Below, piece by piece: positions 11,774 to 16,633 of a stretch of DNA of 64,000 nt (the stretch's first letter is position 1; the number at the start of each line of letters is the position of its first letter). The translations under genes were made by a program, and so were the position numbers. The notes under the pieces are model-generated. The model made no database searches, was not told the DNA's origin, and saw only the letters and a program-made list of their open reading frames with translations. The stretch comes from Prorocentrum cordatum (Eukaryota), in NCBI GenBank assembly GCA_963575745.1, contig CAUYUJ010000304.1, positions 1 to 64,000 on the forward strand, in the 5' to 3' direction.

Positions 11774-13982
11774 TCAGGCACATACCCGACGAAGCATGTC
11801 TCGAGCTCGCGCCTCCGAGAATTTCTGAGCGTTGGACAGCAGCGAGGCCGAGAGTTTCGTGCGCTGCCGAAGCGCGCTGCCGTGCTTTTCATAGATCCTG
11901 ACACTTTCACGGGCGCGCCAGCGCCCTCTAGCCTGAATGCTTGAGATGGGCCTAACATCGCGCAGGGCGTCGTGCGAAGGCCCACCATGGCGAAGCTGAT
12001 GGGGCACTGACAGAAGGTCCACCACTCCCGCGGTGAAAGCCGCGGCCTTCAAAGCTTTTTCGTACTGCGCGAGAGAGAGAGAGGGGCGAAAAGAGTAGGG
12101 AGGCCTTGCAGCCGCGCCCGGGCACGGAGTCGAGACAGAATCTCGGGCACCAGGCGACGGAGGGGCAGGTCAGTGCCTGCCTTCACTGCGCAATCGAAGT
12201 CGCGATTCTTTGCTGGCTTGTCTTCGTTCAACGGAGCAACAACGACAGTGATATCGGCGGAGGGTCCTGAGCATCGAGAGCCAAAGACATGTTCGGGCTT
12301 TATCGAGAGGAGCTCGCTGGGCCGAAAATACATGTCAAACTGGACCAAGGCGCCAAGCGCGACCAGGAGGTCAAGGCCCGCGCCGTTGTCAAGGACAGAG
12401 CAGACCAACTGAACGGCCTCAAATGGGGGCGGATCACGCAAGCACGGCGGGATCCTGGTTGACCAACCAGCCAGGGCATCTTTTGCCTTCTGAGAAACCT
12501 CGCTGCTTGCGCAGACCATGCAGGGCCAGGCGGCCGACGCACTGCGGTTCGCCTGCAAAGAACAGTTCCTCGAAGTAGAGATTCAAGGCCGAGTCGGCCT
12601 CAGGCGGTGATGACAAAGGGGGACCACGCTCCCGCGCAAACACCTCGAGGGCCTCAACTGCCTTACGATAGCTGGCGAGCGTCGCCGGACGCAAGCTGGC
12701 CAGCCGAAGGTAGTCTCCGGGGCCAGCCTCGCGATCGGCGGCCGCGGCGTCGCCGCGAGCGGCGGCGTCAGCGCGCCGCCGCCTCTGCGCCTTGGCCAGC
12801 GGCCTCGGCACTGGCGCCAAGCGCCCGTCGGTCTCCCTGGCGCGCCCAGCGGCTGCCCTGCCCGGAGAAGCTGCGGCCGCTGCCTCGTTCGATGCTCTCG
12901 GCGTCCAGGTCGACGGGCGAGCTGGCGAGGGTGCAGAAGCTGCATCAGCGCTGCCGCGGCTTCGGGTCGAGCGCGGAGGCCCACCCTGGCCGCCAGGGGA
13001 GCCGAAAGCGCTGTGGGCAGATCGGCGCCGAGACGGCTCGGGGCTCTCGGCAGCCTGCCGCGCTCGCCAGCGCGTGAGCCCTGCCCTGGAGCTCTGTCGC
13101 CGCGGCTCGGCCGAAGGCGCCGCCCGGCGCATGGGGGCCAGCCAGGGGCACCAGCAACCGGCACCAGCTCGGCAGGTAGGCGCTCGCGAGGGTCGTCCGC
13201 CACGCCCAGTCTCGAGTAGGATGTCGGACCTTTCCCTGAAGCTCAACGCGATGCCGACCGGCACAGCAGCAGCGAAGCCCCAAAGCCTCCAGGCCTGGCA
13301 AGCTGCCCGCGATCGCGCCCGGCTTCTTGAACGGAGCCCCGAACCTGCACGAGTCGAACAGCACCTTGGGGCACTCGAAGCGCCGGAGCTCCCGCTCGAG
13401 CGCAGGCCAGTGCCAGACGCGGCTCGCGGGCGGGTTCTCAAAGGTCGCGAAGATCCCAAGCCGCCTGCGCAGCCGTAGGACGCGGACGGTGAACGAGACC
13501 AGGACGCGATCCACAGGCAAGGGATCGCGATTGCCTCCCACGGGCACCCAACGCGTGCAGGGGAGGCCGAGGTGAATCCACCAAATCTCGCCACTTTTGA
13601 GCCAATGTAGCACCAGACGCTGAACTTTGGGACGTGTGAGGTCAATGGGGGCCCATCTTGATGTCCACCGGGGGCAGAACTCGAAGGCCTCTTTCACGCA
13701 GGGCTCCAGTGAGGTTAGCAGTGCCAGCAAAGATCTCCAAGAACGCCTTGCGACCACGGTCAGCCCGAGGAAGCGCAGGAGGCCCAACCCCAAGACGGCG
13801 AGCATCCCCAAGACGATCACCCAGTCGTTGGCGAGCTCCATCGGGGTCCTCTCGAGGTCCCGCGGGTAGAACATGTAGATCACCAGGGCCTTCGCATGCA
13901 CCTCCCTGAGCGTTACGGGTGCTGAGCGGGTCCTCCTGAGGCTTCTTTTGACTTTCGCAGCCTTGACAACGGGAGCACTCAT
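11774..13982 (-). pseudogene. Tyrosine recombinase (frameshifts near 13645, 12490 and 12075); core 11774-~12750, long N-terminal extension inferred
   Basis: Catalytic set YFRPSE (R, ~12320), PAK (K), HQLRHGG (~11980-12001), RGRW, VRIYEK (Y at 11891-11893), plus an N-terminal SLRPATLASYRKAV core-binding region. The start at ATG 13982 is an inference from frame repair. Confidence 0.9.
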
Positions 13983-16633
13983 GATGATGTGGACGGGAAG
14001 TGTCGGGGCGTCTCTCGGCCCAGCTGGCTGGCAACGCAACTGCAGAAGGTATTGGATGAGAAAAAGTGTGAGTGTACAGCGTCTGAGATGGCAAAACGAT
14101 CTGACTAATCTGACTCTTTGTATTTTCAGGCCGCAGAGACACGGCCTCTCTCCCGTCGATCTGATAGACCTGCGCCCGCGAGGGCCGAACCACGGGCTCG
14201 CGACGGCTGCGCCGCGTGGGTGCCGAGAGGGCCCCTCGCCCTCGGTAGCGCCCAGCTCGTAGCTCACCGCGATCTGCCGCCCTGCTGCCGTGGTCCGCGA
14301 CGTTCTGGATGCCGGGGACATGCCTGGGGCGCCAGCGGATCTCGCAGCCCAGGCACACTGCGGCAGCACGGCGACACTGCGCCAGCAGCTCAAAATTGGT
14401 GGCCCTGCCCTTCTCGAAGGCGAGGACCGACGACATGTTATCACACAAGCTGAGGATCTCGGCGCCGTGGAACCGAACATCGCCTGCAGCACGCCACAGG
14501 GGAGCGACGGCGGCCCGCGCCTCCAAGGCGTGGATCCGCCCTGGGCAGCGCCACGCACCTCGGCGCCGCTCCGTCCAGCGCGCTGGATCCAGCAGCGCCT
14601 CCGCCAAGGGCTCGGGCGGCACCCCGATCTCGAGCTCGACACGGCGCCGCCGAGCGACGGCGTGTCTGAGCCTTGGCGGGGCCTCCAGAGGCAACGGCTC
14701 GGAGGCGTCGAGCAGCCCTGCCACGCGCCCTTCATGCACCTCCGTGTCGGGCGCGATCTCCACCTCCGAGGATGCGAAGTGCTGGCGCTCCCGCCAGCGA
14801 GTGGTAGCCAAGATCTCCCACGGCTGCAGGCGGGCCTCACATACGGCGTAGCCCTGCATCGAGCTATCGGTGGTGAAGGCGATGTCCGACGGCACCCTGC
14901 ACATGTCGACCTCGCCCAGGAAGACCAGGCCGGCTGCGGTCGCCAGCTCGCCCGGCACGTCAGGGGGCACGCGCGCCATCTCGGCCAAGTCGCCGCTGGA
15001 GAGTAGCTGGCGCCCAGGACACTGAGGCCAGGCCGTGGCACCGAGAAGTAGTGCGCGATGTGGCCCGCGATCCGCCGGAGCTGCCAGCGAGCCAGCCAGG
15101 GATGCCGGAGTACGTGGTGCAACGCCAAGTAGAGCCGCCAGGCCCGCTTCGGCGTGCGCTGGAGGCGCCCCTCGCGTCCATCCAGCACCATCCCGAGGAT
15201 GACGAGCCCAGGCTGGGCTCTCCAGCTCGTGCCAGCGCAAGCCCCGCCTATCCAGCTCGGCCGTGAGCCTGTCCAGGCGGTCGTCGAGCGCCGGCGCACT
15301 GAGCGAGACCAGGTTCCCGTTGTCGACGTATGGGGCCCTGACGACCGAGCGCCCAACAAGAGTCGGGGCCTTGGCCTTGTCAAGACACCAGCCATCGCCA
15401 GGGAGCCCCGCCGCGTCCATCGCGTCGACCAGCACCTCGCGGCAGATCCAGAGCGCCCAGCTCCAGCCCATCGGCAGCGCAGCAAAGCACGGCCAGATGA
15501 CCTCGTCGGGGGTGACCCCGACCCTGTGGCCAAGCTGGTCGTCGAAGATCGAGTCCACCCCCAGCTCGTCGGCGGTGACTTCGATATCGAAGCACATCCA
15601 GCTGCCCCAGGCGGGGTCGGCAAACTGGTAGAAGCCGTCCATGAGGTCCACCGAGCCCGCGCAGAGCGACTCGAAGCAGCCGTCGAAGTCGGCCAGGTCC
15701 TCCGGCGAGGCGTCAATGGCATCCAGCAAGTTGATCGAGCCCAGCGCCTCGCCCGAGGCGAGCACCGTCCGAGGCGGCAACTTGTGGAGCTGGTTCGGCT
15801 GGCGGGCGTCCTCCACCATGCGGATGTCGCCGTTCTTCTTGGCCACGAAGAACGCACTGACGCAAGCCTTCCGCCTGCGGCGGCCGTCGACCAGCCCCCG
15901 CTCTGCCAGGCGCCGCAAGAAGTCCACGAGCCTTGGGCGGTTCCGAGGGTCACGGGGGTTAAGCAGCGGGTCCCAGTACGGCTCCACGATCTCCTCGTCG
16001 TCGGGGATGTTGGCTGCTGGCCGCACCACGTCAACATTGAAGTTGTCCAGGACCTCGGAGACGTGGCGAGGCGCCACTCCGCGAAGCTGGCGCGGCTGGT
16101 CGCTGACGGGACGTCGCAGCACGTTGAGCTTAATTACCAGCATCACAATCACGGCGCGTAGAGCTCTCGCCCATGGCCGAGTACAGGTCCTTGCGCTTGA
16201 GGAGCTCCTGAAGGGCTCCAGCAGAGTCCATGTCCTTCGGGCGGTCGCCGAAGCTGCGAACACGACGTCGGACTCGCTTGATGACCGACTCCTGCGCGGT
16301 AGTCGGCGTCTGCTTGCCGGGCGCGCGAGGCTCGAGGCGCCCTCCAGCCCGAGCGGCCGCCAACCCGTTGAGCGCTCCCATCGCCTCGAGAGAACGACGG
16401 TCGCGATCGTCAGCACGAGCAGCACGCCGGGCCAGGTACCGAGGCAAAGCGGCACGTTCTCCACGACGGGCATGACGACGAAAGTCATCACCCCGAGGCA
16501 GAGGAAACATAACAGCGGACGAAGTCCTGCCCTCGGAGGAGACCCCCTCGGAGGGATGCCACCCCTGGCGCACGTCGGCAGTCGCGACGCCAGGGGTAGG
16601 CGGCGGGAGGCCAGGCGATGAGCCCAGCCACAT
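12945..16633 (-). pseudogene. pol: reverse transcriptase + RNase H + C5-methyltransferase (frameshifts near 16135, 15210, 15000 and 13645)
   Basis: PYWDP, FFVAKK, DAR, DLMDGFYQ (15625-15648), LPMGWSW (15457-15477), YVDN (15319-15330), ILGM; RNase H TDSS, LEARA, CDN, NVADHGSR. Confidence 0.92.
13140..13750 (-). other. C5-cytosine DNA methyltransferase (Dnmt-like) domain at the C-terminus of pol
   Basis: Motif I FLEIFAGTA (FLEIFAG at 13723-13743), DLT, catalytic motif IV GLPC (13557-13568), motif VI ENP (13431-13439), FDSCRFG-APFKKP, motif-X-like AYLPSWC (13161-13181), in canonical order. Confidence 0.85.

What the first reader, a model, noticed from the sequence alone, without database searches (positions are those of the whole stretch)
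11774..14130. Hidden dual-coding region: the recombinase ORF appears to start at ATG 13982, inside pol, and read through the methyltransferase in another frame
Seen: in the RNaseH-MTase linker a second frame begins MSAPVVKAAKVKRSLRRTRS...WVIVLGMLAVLGLGLLRFLGLTVV. Over 13904-13752, 50 of 51 codons in this frame end in G/C, versus 16 of 51 in the pol frame. The single indel near 13645 that repairs the MTase (GPH-x-DLT) also joins this frame to ORF 12434-13645, which runs stop-free into the recombinase. Inference: ~1 kb encodes both the pol C-terminus (including the MTase) and a YR N-terminal extension with a basic segment and a transmembrane-like helix. Overlapping YR/RT ORFs are known in DIRS1; I do not know of overprinting on a cytosine MTase with a hydrophobic anchor.
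Basis: partly seen in the sequence, partly recalled or inferred. Interest (0 to 1): 0.8.

Follow-up and report, generated by a model that had tools for sequence, protein, structure and literature searches.

The report
Recombinase frame kept open across pol
A broken copy of a dinoflagellate retrotransposon has a second reading frame, the recombinase's own frame, that stays free of stop codons right across the polymerase gene, which suggests overlapping coding but does not show that it starts at the proposed ATG.

Summary
ATG 13982 exists, and over 13904-13752 the second frame has G/C at 50 of 51 third positions, against 16 of 50 in the pol frame. Homologs confirm a frameshift at about 13645, at a C5 run. 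The locus is a defective copy (at least 7 frame breaks) of a tyrosine-recombinase retrotransposon, 11107-18377 on the minus strand. It has A-coding-B-A-B repeats and a C5-methyltransferase domain in pol, like SymbioDIRS-Dnmt3; the closest proteins are from Prorocentrum cordatum.

It is stop-depleted along the whole pol path: 1 stop against 15.1 expected. The other alternative frame shows 32 against 37.8, and antisense frames are normal. Sister Pol proteins also lack Met-[IMTNK] dipeptides, which would force a stop in that frame (0 observed, about 11 expected; gag 4 against 4.1).

Two linker patches, 13904-13752 and 16530-16321, carry normal codon usage and hydrophobic helices in this frame. 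Relatives L002 and L003 nest the whole recombinase ORF in pol+1.

The ATG 13982 start is not supported. The frame is open 2.6 kb further upstream, shows no coding signature over the methyltransferase, has no homologs, and no sister DNA could be aligned. Verdict: partly supported; a new variant of the known DIRS long ORF overlap.

The parts
11107..18377 (-). Whole retrotransposon copy (7.27 kb), inserted relative to a paralogous empty site at about 6412
   Evidence: 11000-11107 matches 6309-6412 (89.8%) and 18377-18499 matches 6412-6534 (88.6%). The flanks meet at one position, so there is no target-site duplication longer than about 1 bp.
18265..18377 (-). Split direct repeat A1
   Evidence: identical (113 of 113) to 11335-11447.
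11447..11652 (-). Split direct repeat B1
   Evidence: 99.0% identical over 206 bp to 11107-11312.
11335..11447 (-). Split direct repeat A2
11107..11312 (-). Split direct repeat B2
   Evidence: The order on the minus strand is A1, coding region, B1, A2, B2.
17843..18241 (-). N-terminal part of ORF1 (frame C), starting MGLPWLAAGPW, Cys-rich with a hydrophobic stretch; out of frame with the rest of gag in this copy
   Evidence: P0004, P0005 and P0007 start with the same sequence and continue into gag.
16656..17831 (-). gag-like ORF (frame B), third-position G/C (GC3) about 0.9
16133..16789 (-). pol N-terminal region (frame C); ends at a 4-nt TAAT/TAAG duplication that carries TAA
   Evidence: homologs match frame C to 16133 and then frame A. 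All 8 sisters listed are continuous here.
15241..16131 (-). Reverse transcriptase core (frame A)
15000..15233 (-). RT thumb-like segment that sits in frame B in this copy, between two compensating frameshifts
   Evidence: all 16 homologs have their best frame-B alignment here, 14 of 16 with a score of 100 or more. GC3 in frame B is 0.86-0.88.
13645..15000 (-). RNase H, variable linker and methyltransferase motif I (frame A)
12948..13643 (-). Methyltransferase motifs IV onward and the pol tail (frame B); stop at 12947-12945
   Evidence: The fold of the relative's domain matches C5 methyltransferases.
13647..13651 (-). C5 run at the frameshift that splits the methyltransferase (A to B) and the second frame (B to C)
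   Evidence: together with the homolog alignments.
13980..13982 (-).
   Evidence: It is one of 15 ATGs in this frame along the path.
13752..13904 (-). Patch S1: the pol+1 frame has canonical codon usage and a transmembrane-like helix; the pol frame reads a G/D/R/P/L-rich linker
   Evidence: Sister gene model P0004 contains the peptide, 51 of 54 residues identical.
16321..16530 (-). Patch S0: a second pol+1 patch (raw frame A) with canonical codon usage and two transmembrane-like segments, overlapping the pol N-terminal region
   Evidence: Gene models P0002 and P0008 read this frame.
12437..13693 (-). Frame-C ORF (pol+1 after the shift): low-complexity stretch over the methyltransferase, then the recombinase N-terminal domain. 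The only ATG is at 13132.
11777..12582 (-). Recombinase catalytic region, split over frames A (12582-12052) and C (12169-11777). The motifs HQLRHGG and RIYEK are visible.
   Evidence: (Pfam Phage_integrase, E 0.05).
16639..16641 (-). The only stop (TAG) in the pol+1 / recombinase frame between 17901 and the recombinase; it is made by the rare pol-frame codon GTA followed by G

Best explanation
The locus is a defective copy of a tyrosine-recombinase (DIRS-order) retrotransposon of the SymbioDIRS-Dnmt3 type. Its layout is ORF1/gag, then pol (RT, RNase H, variable linker, C5-methyltransferase), then the recombinase in the +1 frame of pol, flanked by A-coding-B-A-B split direct repeats. In the lineage this copy came from, that frame has been kept free of stop codons by selection on synonymous codon choice along the whole of pol, not only from 13982. 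In the two least constrained parts of pol (the N-terminal region, S0, and the RNase H-methyltransferase linker, S1) it carries the element's normal codon usage and encodes hydrophobic helices, while pol merely reads through. The most likely mechanism (inferred, not shown) is a very long pol/recombinase ORF overlap of the kind known as 'long ORF overlap' in DIRS1-like elements. Under it the recombinase would be made as the C-terminal domain of a protein translated in the +1 frame over pol, reached either by initiation at an upstream AUG of that frame (leaky scanning) or by +1 frameshifting from pol. ATG 13982 is only one of several possible entry points. In this particular copy neither pol nor the recombinase can be made intact.
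For: - **Element identity.** Repeat structure and empty site. All 15 NCBI-named homologs of pol are Prorocentrum cordatum gene models, at 29-95% identity. De Mendoza et al. 2018 describe the A-coding-B-A-B layout, a DNMT inside Pol and a separate recombinase ORF (PMC5890265; section 6 and found passages read). A model of the relative L001's domain (pLDDT 63) matches only C5 methyltransferases among all rows shown with E <= 1e-3.
- **Same frame as the recombinase.** The recombinase sits in pol+1 in 4 of 4 elements where both genes are seen: the window, L001, L002 and L003.
- **Stop depletion in this copy.** On the homolog-corrected pol path, pol+1 has 1 stop against 15.1 expected from synonymous-codon shuffles (0 of 4000 shuffles as low; Poisson 5e-6). 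Pol+2 has 32 against 37.8.
- **Per segment.** RT 0 against 4.6 (P 0.0013); RH 0 against 2.2; linker 0 against 2.4; MT 0 against 2.7 (P 0.03).
- **Codon level.** None of the 70 pol codons ending in TG is followed by A, although 87 of 650 next codons start with A. All 16 xTx codons that precede an A-start codon end in C or T. In gag, 12 TG-ending and 9 TC-ending codons precede A-start codons.
- **Antisense controls.** The three antisense frames are as expected.
- **Gag.** The same absolute frame has 0 stops against 5.8 expected (P 0.0008), while the other alternative frame has 12 against 11.5.
- **Independent evidence from sisters.** Met followed by I, M, T, N or K forces TGA in pol+1. The Pol parts of 15 P. 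cordatum models have 0 such dipeptides against about 11.4 expected. Their gag parts have 4 against 4.1.
- **Correction for relatedness.** Counting each Met alignment column once (29 columns, 37 states) gives 3.1-3.9 expected and 0 observed, P 0.016-0.038.
- **Patches.** S1 and S0 have pol-frame third-position T of 0.49 and 0.42, against 0.07-0.11 in the cores. In the +1 frame their composition is canonical. They hold the only transmembrane-like windows found in any of the scanned pol+1, pol-frame and gag segments.
- **Precedent in relatives.** In L003 the whole 610-codon recombinase ORF lies in pol+1, and the pol frame has 0 stops over it against 20.5 expected. L002 has the same layout.
- **Literature.** Long pol/YR ORF overlaps occur in half of 28 DIRS1-like elements, with the catalytic domain in the non-overlapping 3' end (PMC3266345; passages read).
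Against: - **Data base.** All codon-level evidence comes from one defective copy. No sister DNA could be aligned.
- **No coding signature over MT, RT or RH.** There the +1 frame has out-of-frame composition (GC3 about 0.65-0.73) and low-complexity sequence. Only the absence of stops speaks for it.
- **Sister-contig variants (40 of 1135 rows shown).** In 16325-16436, 8 of 12 are synonymous in the pol frame and only 3 of 12 in the +1 frame, so the S0 peptide looks unconstrained there. In 13697-13775, 0 of 4 are synonymous in the +1 frame and 1 of 4 in pol. In 13103-13629, 3 of 5 are synonymous in +1 and 1 of 5 in pol. The numbers are too small to decide.
- **First S0 helix.** It is not hydrophobic in P0008.
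- **No homologs.** The S1 peptide has no homolog beyond the sister model P0004 (1 hit among 6043 candidates; 0 hits in 1.84 billion representatives; no protein-atlas hit).
- **+1 translation over MT.** It matched nothing among 8000 scored candidates.
- **Relatives.** The lower-GC relatives L001 and L003 show no comparable +1 depletion: 23 against 30 over the whole L001 pol (P about 0.02), and 24 against 27 over the L003 RT/RH part. L001 has +1 stops inside its MT domain, so its overlap is at most 380 nt.
- **Frame boundaries.** The frame contains one TAG (16641) and is also open through gag, which the overlap model does not explain.
- **Expression.** No RNA or protein evidence exists.
Confidence: 0.5

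Rival explanations
1. There is no present dual coding. S1, and likewise S0, is a relic: a piece of ordinary high-GC3 coding sequence, captured or left from an older arrangement, that pol now reads one base out of phase. Such a piece is automatically stop-free both in its native frame and in the frame whose first position is its third position. It therefore survives in a tolerant linker and automatically lies in pol+1. The open frame over the methyltransferase would be a by-product of 66-70% G+C.
For: With G/C at 50 of 51 frame-B third positions, frame A cannot contain stops there. The RNase H-methyltransferase linker differs completely between families. The S1 peptide is confined to this subfamily. 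The variants shown give no sign of constraint on the +1 peptides. Over the MT domain alone, 0 stops against 2.7 expected is only P about 0.03.
Against: It does not explain the +1 stop depletion in the RT and RH cores (0 against 4.6 and 0 against 2.2). It does not explain the complete avoidance of xTG|A in pol but not in gag. It does not explain the absence of Met-[IMTNK] in sister Pol proteins. No donor sequence was found. Pol-frame third positions with 49% T are far from the local background, so the patch has not relaxed toward pol-frame usage.
Confidence: 0.27
2. S1 belongs to pol's own frame in intact master copies. This subfamily carries a pair of compensating frameshifts around it, at about 13950 and about 13755, like the pair around 15233-15000. 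On this reading the 'second frame' is simply the old pol frame.
For: This copy demonstrably has such a compensating pair at 15233-15000 and at least five other frame breaks. Homology in frame A upstream of motif I is weak before about 13760. The P0001-family linker aligns weakly with frame B (score 41, 2 of 1000 shuffles as high).
Against: The 95% sister model P0004 has the same phase relation: it reads ...LTVVARR in frame B past 13755. P0007 and P0015 align to frame A from about 13803 (scores 82 and 89, 0 of 1000 shuffles as high). Under this reading pol+1 would be frame C in S1. Frame C has 7 stops over 13982-13644, so the otherwise continuous stop-free recombinase frame would be broken exactly there. 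It needs three indels where one suffices.
Confidence: 0.1
3. S0 and S1 encode short, separate membrane peptides in the +1 frame, as accessory small ORFs of the element, and are not joined to the recombinase.
For: Only these two patches have coding-like composition in the +1 frame, and all three hydrophobic windows lie in them. In-frame ATGs lie within or just before both patches: 16488 and 16473; 13982, 13874, 13841 and 13805.
Against: Neither patch is closed by a stop; the frame runs on for kilobases. The ATGs are not conserved in P0002 or P0008. This reading also leaves the stop depletion between the patches unexplained.
Confidence: 0.08
4. The features are assembly artefacts: indel errors in a repeat-rich long-read assembly create apparent frame changes and spurious long ORFs.
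For: There are many single-base frame changes in a copy whose terminal repeats are 99-100% identical. The 13645 shift lies in a C5 run, and the shift near 12060 lies in a CT repeat.
Against: Indel errors cannot create a 98% G/C periodicity, deplete stops in a single frame, or affect sister proteins. The break at 16133-16136 is a 4-nt duplication, not a homopolymer error. Contigs of an independent run hold 46% of the element's sampled words.
Confidence: 0.05

Closest known systems
SymbioDIRS-Dnmt3 retrotransposons of Symbiodiniaceae (de Mendoza et al. 2018, PMC5890265; section 6 and found passages read)
   Same: Dinoflagellate host. A-coding-B-A-B repeats. A cytosine-methyltransferase domain inside Pol together with RT. 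The recombinase in a separate ORF. Two coexisting gene orders; both are seen here, in the window and L001 versus P0016, L002 and L003.
   Different: The host is Prorocentrum-like. The MT domain is too divergent for Pfam PF00145 and is recognised only by fold on a relative. The parts of the paper I read (section 6 and the found passages) do not mention a stop-free recombinase frame across pol, +1-frame hydrophobic patches, or a nested recombinase ORF. Its supplementary figures were not seen.
DIRS1-like elements with 'long ORF overlap' between pol and YR (Piednoel et al. 2011, PMC3266345; passages read)
   Same: The recombinase ORF extends 5' over the methyltransferase end of pol in another frame. 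The catalytic domain lies in the non-overlapping 3' end.
   Different: Those elements have inverted terminal repeats plus internal complementary regions and a Dam-like adenine methyltransferase. Here there are split direct repeats and a C5 fold. The open frame here spans all of pol (about 4.2 kb), with statistical evidence that stops are avoided. I saw no such test in the passages read.
Near-complete ORF overlaps in RNA viruses, for example the tymovirus 69K/206K pair read by leaky scanning (recalled from memory, not checked here)
   Same: Two very long ORFs in +1 register with start codons close together. One protein is constrained and the other is largely overprinted.
   Different: No evidence here for initiation sites, expression or function of the overprinted part. 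This is an analogy only.
Relatives L003 and L002 (metagenome contigs fetched) and P. cordatum model P0016
   Same: Same RT, RH, MT and recombinase families. The recombinase is in pol+1, and the pol frame is kept open as a linker over +1 coding sequence (L003: 0 stops against 20.5 expected over 610 codons). The compositional signature matches S1: pol-frame GC1 high, +1-frame GC3 high.
   Different: There the +1 ORF is the recombinase itself, nested between RNase H and MT and closed by stops at both ends. There is no +1 stop depletion over the L003 RT/RH part (24 against 27).

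Membership tests
DIRS-order tyrosine-recombinase retrotransposon, SymbioDIRS-Dnmt3 / PAT-like type | Split direct repeats in the order A, coding region, B, A, B | tested here: met
   A is 113 bp and 100% identical; B is 206 bp and 99% identical; the order on the minus strand is A1, ORFs, B1, A2, B2.
DIRS-order tyrosine-recombinase retrotransposon, SymbioDIRS-Dnmt3 / PAT-like type | Reverse transcriptase / RNase H pol | tested here: inconclusive
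   Pfam finds no RVT_1 in the window's frames. The relative L003, which tblastn links to the window's RT segment, hits RVT_1 at E 2.9e-6, 27.6 bits, below the 29.6-bit cut-off. The RT motif C reads YVDN rather than YxDD.
DIRS-order tyrosine-recombinase retrotransposon, SymbioDIRS-Dnmt3 / PAT-like type | Tyrosine recombinase with HxxR and a catalytic Tyr | tested here: inconclusive
   HQLRHGG and GRW...RIYEK are visible in frame C at 12169-11777. Pfam Phage_integrase scores E 0.05, 13.8 bits, below the cut-off. The L001 ORF hits Phage_int_SAM_1 at E 0.0087, below the cut-off. The gene is split over at least two frames in this copy.
DIRS-order tyrosine-recombinase retrotransposon, SymbioDIRS-Dnmt3 / PAT-like type | Cytosine-5 methyltransferase domain inside Pol | tested here: met
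   Motif I (FLEIFAGTANLTG), a PC motif (GLPCTRW) and an ENP motif (FENPPASRVW) are visible. The model of the homologous L001 domain (33% identical to the window's; pLDDT 63.3) has only C5 methyltransferases (MET1, DNMT1, DNMT2, DIM-2, M.HaeIII, M.HhaI) among all rows shown with E <= 1e-3. Sequence profiles failed: Pfam and PDB sequences. The Dnmt3 subfamily was not tested.
DIRS-order tyrosine-recombinase retrotransposon, SymbioDIRS-Dnmt3 / PAT-like type | Insertion without a target-site duplication | tested here: met
   both flanks map to position 6412 of the paralogous empty site.
DIRS1-like 'long ORF overlap' architecture | The YR ORF extends 5' over the 3' part of pol in another frame, with the catalytic domain in the non-overlapping 3' end | tested here: met
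   Frame C is open from 13693 to 12437 and the pol stop is at 12947-12945. Recombinase homology starts at about 13000 and the catalytic motifs lie below 12500.
DIRS1-like 'long ORF overlap' architecture | Inverted terminal repeats with internal complementary regions; Dam-like adenine methyltransferase | tested here: not met
   The repeats are direct and split, and the MT fold matches C5 enzymes. The locus works like a long-overlap DIRS1-like element but is not a member of the DIRS1-like superfamily.
Overprinted (dual-coding) gene pair | Both frames free of stops beyond what composition and codon usage give | tested here: met
   pol+1 has 1 stop against 15.1 expected, while pol+2 and the antisense frames are as expected.
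Overprinted (dual-coding) gene pair | Coding signature (codon usage) in the second frame | tested here: inconclusive
   Met in S1 (13904-13752) and S0 (16530-16321). Not met over the RT, RH and MT cores.
Overprinted (dual-coding) gene pair | Purifying selection on the second frame among copies | tested here: inconclusive
   Only 40 of 1135 variant rows were visible. Synonymous in the +1 frame: 3 of 12 at S0, 0 of 4 at S1 and motif I, 3 of 5 over MT. At the amino-acid level, forced +1 stops are absent from sister Pol proteins.
Overprinted (dual-coding) gene pair | Translation of both frames | not testable with these tools
   No RNA run holds the stretch. No ribosome-profiling or peptide data were at hand.

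The most novel reading that the evidence does not exclude
In this Prorocentrum family of methyltransferase-bearing recombinase retrotransposons, the recombinase is the C-terminal domain of a giant protein of about 1,500 codons, translated entirely in the +1 frame over pol. That frame has been purged of stops by selection on pol's synonymous codons. It encodes its own hydrophobic, membrane-anchor-like segments only where pol is a tolerant linker. This would be a tymovirus-like near-total ORF overlap in a eukaryotic retrotransposon, overprinting RT, RNase H and a C5 methyltransferase.
Probability: 0.22. Interest if true: 0.8.

Novelty: new variant of a known kind. Interest (0 to 1): 0.55.

Why it matters
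How DIRS-order elements express their recombinase from overlapping ORFs is unresolved. If the +1 frame across pol is really translated, this would be one of the longest overprinted regions in a eukaryotic mobile element. It would also be a clean case in which the codon choice of an RT/RNase H/DNMT polyprotein is shaped by a second frame. That bears on how overlapping genes arise, on dN/dS-based TE analyses, and on gene prediction in GC-rich dinoflagellate genomes, where the sister gene models visibly hop between these frames. If it is not translated, the case shows that high-GC3 patches read out of phase mimic dual coding. The frame-specific stop depletion would then still need an explanation.

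Tried and rejected
- **Sequencing runs.** No RNA holder is listed. Contigs of 4 runs were laid, but only 40 of 1135 substitution rows and 12 of 69 indel rows were shown. That is too few for codon-position statistics. No row for an indel at about 13645 was among those shown.
- **Collection scans for sister DNA.** The metagenome scan gave 4 distant loci only. Viral contigs gave none. Prokaryote genome contigs gave none.
- **Homologs of the S1 peptide.** Only the sister model P0004 was found. There were 0 hits in 1.84 billion representatives and nothing in the protein atlas.
- **Homologs of the +1 translation over the methyltransferase.** None (only proteins of 230-734 residues were searched).
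- **Repeats and duplication.** No tandem repeat lies in 13500-14250. The window holds no second copy or donor of S1, so periodicity from repeat expansion was rejected.
- **Pfam and PDB sequence searches.** Both were almost blind to this family.
- **P0004's apparent pol-recombinase fusion.** I considered it as evidence of a single polyprotein and rejected it. The model jumps about 130 nt, from about 13056 to about 12925, which looks like a predicted intron.
- **General codon-context bias as the cause of the missing TGA.** Rejected, because gag of the same element has 12 TG|A junctions and pol+2 has normal stop numbers.
- **Background from other genes in the window.** Too few high-GC3 ORFs exist to calibrate one.
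- **Earlier notes of this scan.** Nothing was found.

Full report
**What is there**

The finding lies inside a 7.27-kb retrotransposon on the minus strand, 11107-18377. A paralogous empty site at about 6412 fixes both ends: 11000-11107 matches 6309-6412 and 18377-18499 matches 6412-6534. The element has split direct repeats in the order A1 (18377-18265), coding region, B1 (11652-11447), A2 (11447-11335), B2 (11312-11107). The A repeats are 113 of 113 identical and the B repeats 99% over 206 bp.

All 15 NCBI-named homologs of the pol translation are Prorocentrum cordatum gene models, at 29-95% identity. One more distant protein comes from an ENA assembly. The layout matches the SymbioDIRS-Dnmt3 elements of de Mendoza et al. 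2018: ORF1/gag, pol with RT, RNase H and a methyltransferase, a separate recombinase ORF, and A-coding-B-A-B repeats (PMC5890265; section 6 and found passages read).

Pfam and PDB sequence searches barely see the family. A model of the homologous domain of relative L001 (33% identical to the window's; pLDDT 63.3) matches only cytosine-5 methyltransferases among all rows shown with E <= 1e-3.

**Frames**

I name minus-strand frames by first-base coordinate mod 3: A = 0, B = 2, C = 1. B is +1 of A, C is +1 of B, and A is +1 of C.

**Observation check**

- The ATG at 13982 is in frame B.
- Over 13904-13752, G/C at third positions is 50 of 51 in B, 16 of 50 in A and 32 of 50 in C.
- Along the whole gag/pol coding path, 1370 windows of 51 codons were scanned. 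Only 20 have 47 or more G/C first positions, and all 20 lie here. The binomial P is 4e-7.
- The pol frame here has T at 49% of third positions, against 7-11% in the cores. Frame B has the element's canonical composition.
- Frame A stops at 13644-13642, right after motif I (FLEIFAGTANLTG). Frame B continues with the later motifs.
- P0015, P0016 and P0007 follow frame A up to about 13640-13700, and P0015 and P0016 then follow frame B. The aligned relatives L001-L004 are continuous across this point.
- The shift sits at a C5 run (13651-13647). The same shift links frame B upstream to frame C downstream, which is open from 13693 to 12437 and runs into the recombinase.

**The copy is defective**

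Homologs define the true pol path:

| Segment | Frame |
|---|---|
| 16789-16133 | C |
| 16131-15241 | A |
| 15233-15000 | B |
| 15000-13645 | A |
| 13643-12948 | B |

The evidence for each break is as follows.

- All 16 homologs have their best frame-B alignment inside 15233-14934, 14 of 16 with a score of 100 or more.
- At 16133-16136 a 4-nt TAAT/TAAG duplication with a TAA interrupts a stretch that all 8 sisters listed read as continuous.
- ORF1 is broken between 17861 and 17831.
- The recombinase is broken at about 12485 and about 12060.

That makes at least seven frame breaks in a copy whose repeats are 99-100% identical. They could be real mutations or assembly indels; I cannot tell which.

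**The second frame is the recombinase frame, and it is kept open**

The same holds in L001, L002 and L003, so in 4 of 4 elements.

I tested stops against shuffles that keep the protein and the codon usage:

| Frame or segment | Stops observed | Stops expected | Note |
|---|---|---|---|
| pol+1, whole path | 1 | 15.1 | 0 of 4000 shuffles as low; Poisson 5e-6 |
| pol+2, whole path | 32 | 37.8 | |
| pol+1, N-terminal part | 1 | 2.25 | |
| pol+1, RT | 0 | 4.64 | P 0.0013 |
| pol+1, thumb segment | 0 | 0.9 | |
| pol+1, RH | 0 | 2.22 | |
| pol+1, linker and motif I | 0 | 2.36 | |
| pol+1, MT | 0 | 2.68 | P 0.03 |

- The three antisense frames are as expected in gag, RT, RH and MT.
- The cause is visible at codon level. 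None of the 70 pol codons ending in TG is followed by A, although 87 of 650 next codons start with A. All 16 xTx codons before A-start codons end in C or T. In gag, 12 TG-ending and 9 TC-ending codons precede A-start codons.
- In gag the same absolute frame (gag-1) has 0 stops against 5.8 expected (P 0.0008), and the other alternative frame has 12 against 11.5.
- The single stop in this frame between 17901 and the recombinase is TAG 16641, made by a rare GTA codon of pol.

**Independent hint from sister proteins**

Met followed by I, M, T, N or K forces TGA in pol+1 whatever the codons.

- The Pol parts of 15 P. cordatum models contain 0 such dipeptides, with about 11.4 expected by residue shuffling. 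The distant P0015 has 1 against 1.8 expected.
- The gag parts of 10 models have 4 against 4.1 expected.
- Because the models are related, I also counted each Met alignment column once. That gives 29 columns and 37 states, with 3.1-3.9 expected and 0 observed, P 0.016-0.038.

**Two coding-like patches**

S1 (13904-13752) is one patch. A second, S0 (16530-16321), overlaps the pol N-terminal region.

- Raw frame A, which is pol+1 there, has GC3 of 0.73-0.90. The pol frame has 0.37-0.70, with 42% T at third positions.
- In the scanned pol+1, pol-frame and gag segments, transmembrane-like windows (Kyte-Doolittle mean of 1.6 or more over 19 residues) occur only in the pol+1 frame at S0 (two) and S1 (one).
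- Gene models of sister copies picked up these frames. P0004 contains the S1 peptide (51 of 54 identical). P0002 and P0008 contain the S0 peptide. These are predictions that hop between frames, not evidence of translation.

**Relatives**

Four metagenome contigs at 23-32% identity were found.

- L003 and L002 have the other gene order: RT, RH, recombinase, MT.
- In both, the whole recombinase ORF is nested in pol+1. In L003 the pol frame is kept open over it, with 0 stops against 20.5 expected over 610 codons.
- Their compositional signature is the same as S1: pol-frame first-position G/C high, +1-frame GC3 high. Long overprinting of the recombinase ORF and pol is therefore real in this group.
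- L001 has the window's gene order. Its +1 ORF starts, stop to stop, only 380 nt before the pol stop, with +1 stops at 3636 and 3720 inside the MT domain.
- Neither relative shows a comparable +1 depletion: 23 against 30 over the whole L001 pol (P about 0.02) and 24 against 27 over the L003 RT/RH part.

- The frame is not delimited at 13982. It is open upstream to 16133 in raw coordinates and to 16641 on the corrected path. It holds ATGs at 16488, 16473, 16143, 16037, 15722, 15395, 15181, 14735, 14480, 14321, 13982, 13874, 13841, 13805 and 13132.
- The coding-like composition starts at about 13904, not at the ATG.
- Over the methyltransferase the +1 frame looks like an out-of-frame translation. 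Its GC3 is 0.65-0.73 against 0.8-0.92 for the MT frame.
- The few sister-contig variants shown give no consistent constraint. At S0, 8 of 12 are synonymous in pol and 3 of 12 in +1. At 13697-13775, 1 of 4 in pol and 0 of 4 in +1. Over MT, 1 of 5 in pol and 3 of 5 in +1.
- The S1 peptide and the +1 translation over MT have no homologs.

**Mechanism**

Shown:
- the frame-specific avoidance of stops;
- the two patches;
- the common frame with the recombinase;
- the nested arrangement in relatives.

Inferred: the master element carries a very long pol/recombinase ORF overlap. The recombinase would be made as the C-terminal part of a +1-frame product, entered either at an upstream AUG of that frame or by +1 frameshifting from pol. 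Pol codon choice would be constrained only to avoid +1 stops, except in the linkers, where the +1 frame dominates.

Rivals:
- The patches are relics of ordinary coding sequence read one base out of phase. This is automatically stop-free in both frames and automatically lies in pol+1. It does not explain the core-wide depletion or the Met dipeptide result.
- S1 belongs to pol in intact masters, with compensating shifts around it. The sister's phase, the frame-A homology and the 7 frame-C stops over 13982-13644 speak against this.
- S0 and S1 are separate small membrane ORFs. No closing stops are present.
- Assembly artefact. It cannot make periodicity or deplete one frame.

The open frame through gag and the TAG at 16641 remain unexplained.

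**Comparison and novelty**

Long pol/YR ORF overlaps, with the catalytic domain in the non-overlapping 3' end, are described for half of 28 DIRS1-like elements (PMC3266345; passages read). DNMT-bearing DIRS-like elements of dinoflagellates are also described (PMC5890265).

What I did not find in the passages read of these two papers, nor in the listings of two full-text searches, is the following: an overlap spanning all of pol including a C5 methyltransferase, statistical evidence for stop avoidance, +1-frame hydrophobic patches, or a recombinase ORF nested in pol. The searches used the terms retrotransposon / cytosine methyltransferase / dinoflagellate / DIRS and DIRS / tyrosine recombinase / overlapping open reading frames / retrotransposon. 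Supplementary figures of de Mendoza et al. were not seen and may show ORF overlaps.

I rate this a new variant of a known kind, resting on one defective copy plus protein-level hints from sisters.

Noticed in passing
L003:2025-3854 and L002:2-1237 (metagenome loci): In relatives with the order RT, RH, recombinase, MT, the whole recombinase ORF is nested in the +1 frame inside one long pol ORF (1529 codons in L003). The pol frame has 0 stops over the 610-codon recombinase ORF against 20.5 expected.
   Followed up: partly
window 17843-18241 (minus strand): ORF1 starts with a conserved MGLPWLAAGPW..., followed by a Cys-rich run of CPxC motifs and a hydrophobic stretch (GWWAVGAALAVGLLLGGGG). P0004, P0005 and P0007 share it. 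This is unusual for a gag-like protein.
   Followed up: no
window 13052: One contig in each of runs X1 and X2 lacks one base here (contig depth 33.5 of 48.3 at that place in X1, 4.28 of 9.52 in X2). That would put the methyltransferase frame into the recombinase frame 105 nt before the pol stop, giving a pol-recombinase fusion in those copies.
   Followed up: partly
window about 15330 (minus strand, frame A) and alignment A4: The RT motif C reads YVDN in this copy and in the consensus of P. cordatum sisters, not the usual YxDD.
   Followed up: no
P0001, P0002, P0003, P0005, P0010 (linker before HWLKSGE): This sister family has a 28-residue tandem duplication (GAH.Y.LGH.K.LN...LSALGLL.F..) in place of a recognisable methyltransferase motif I. 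It aligns weakly with the window's frame-B reading of the motif I DNA (score 41, 2 of 1000 shuffles as high).
   Followed up: partly
window 8984-10400: Two copies, about 700 bp apart, of the same ORF-bearing sequence (for example 9221-9622 and 9925-10323). The flanks of the element are rich in short P/R/G/Q-coding repeats that recur at 6300-6800, 18400-19900, 21000-21300 and 25900-26100.
   Followed up: no
window 50001-53000: A block with G+C of 0.37-0.48 and strong positive GC skew (0.27-0.64, peaking at 0.59-0.64 over 50-52 kb) in an otherwise 55-70% G+C window.
   Followed up: no
window 61931-62230 (+), 34426-34617 (+), 25416-25730 (-): Short tblastn matches to P0009, P0016 (recombinase part) and P0011. 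These are probably fragments of other elements of the same superfamily.
   Followed up: no
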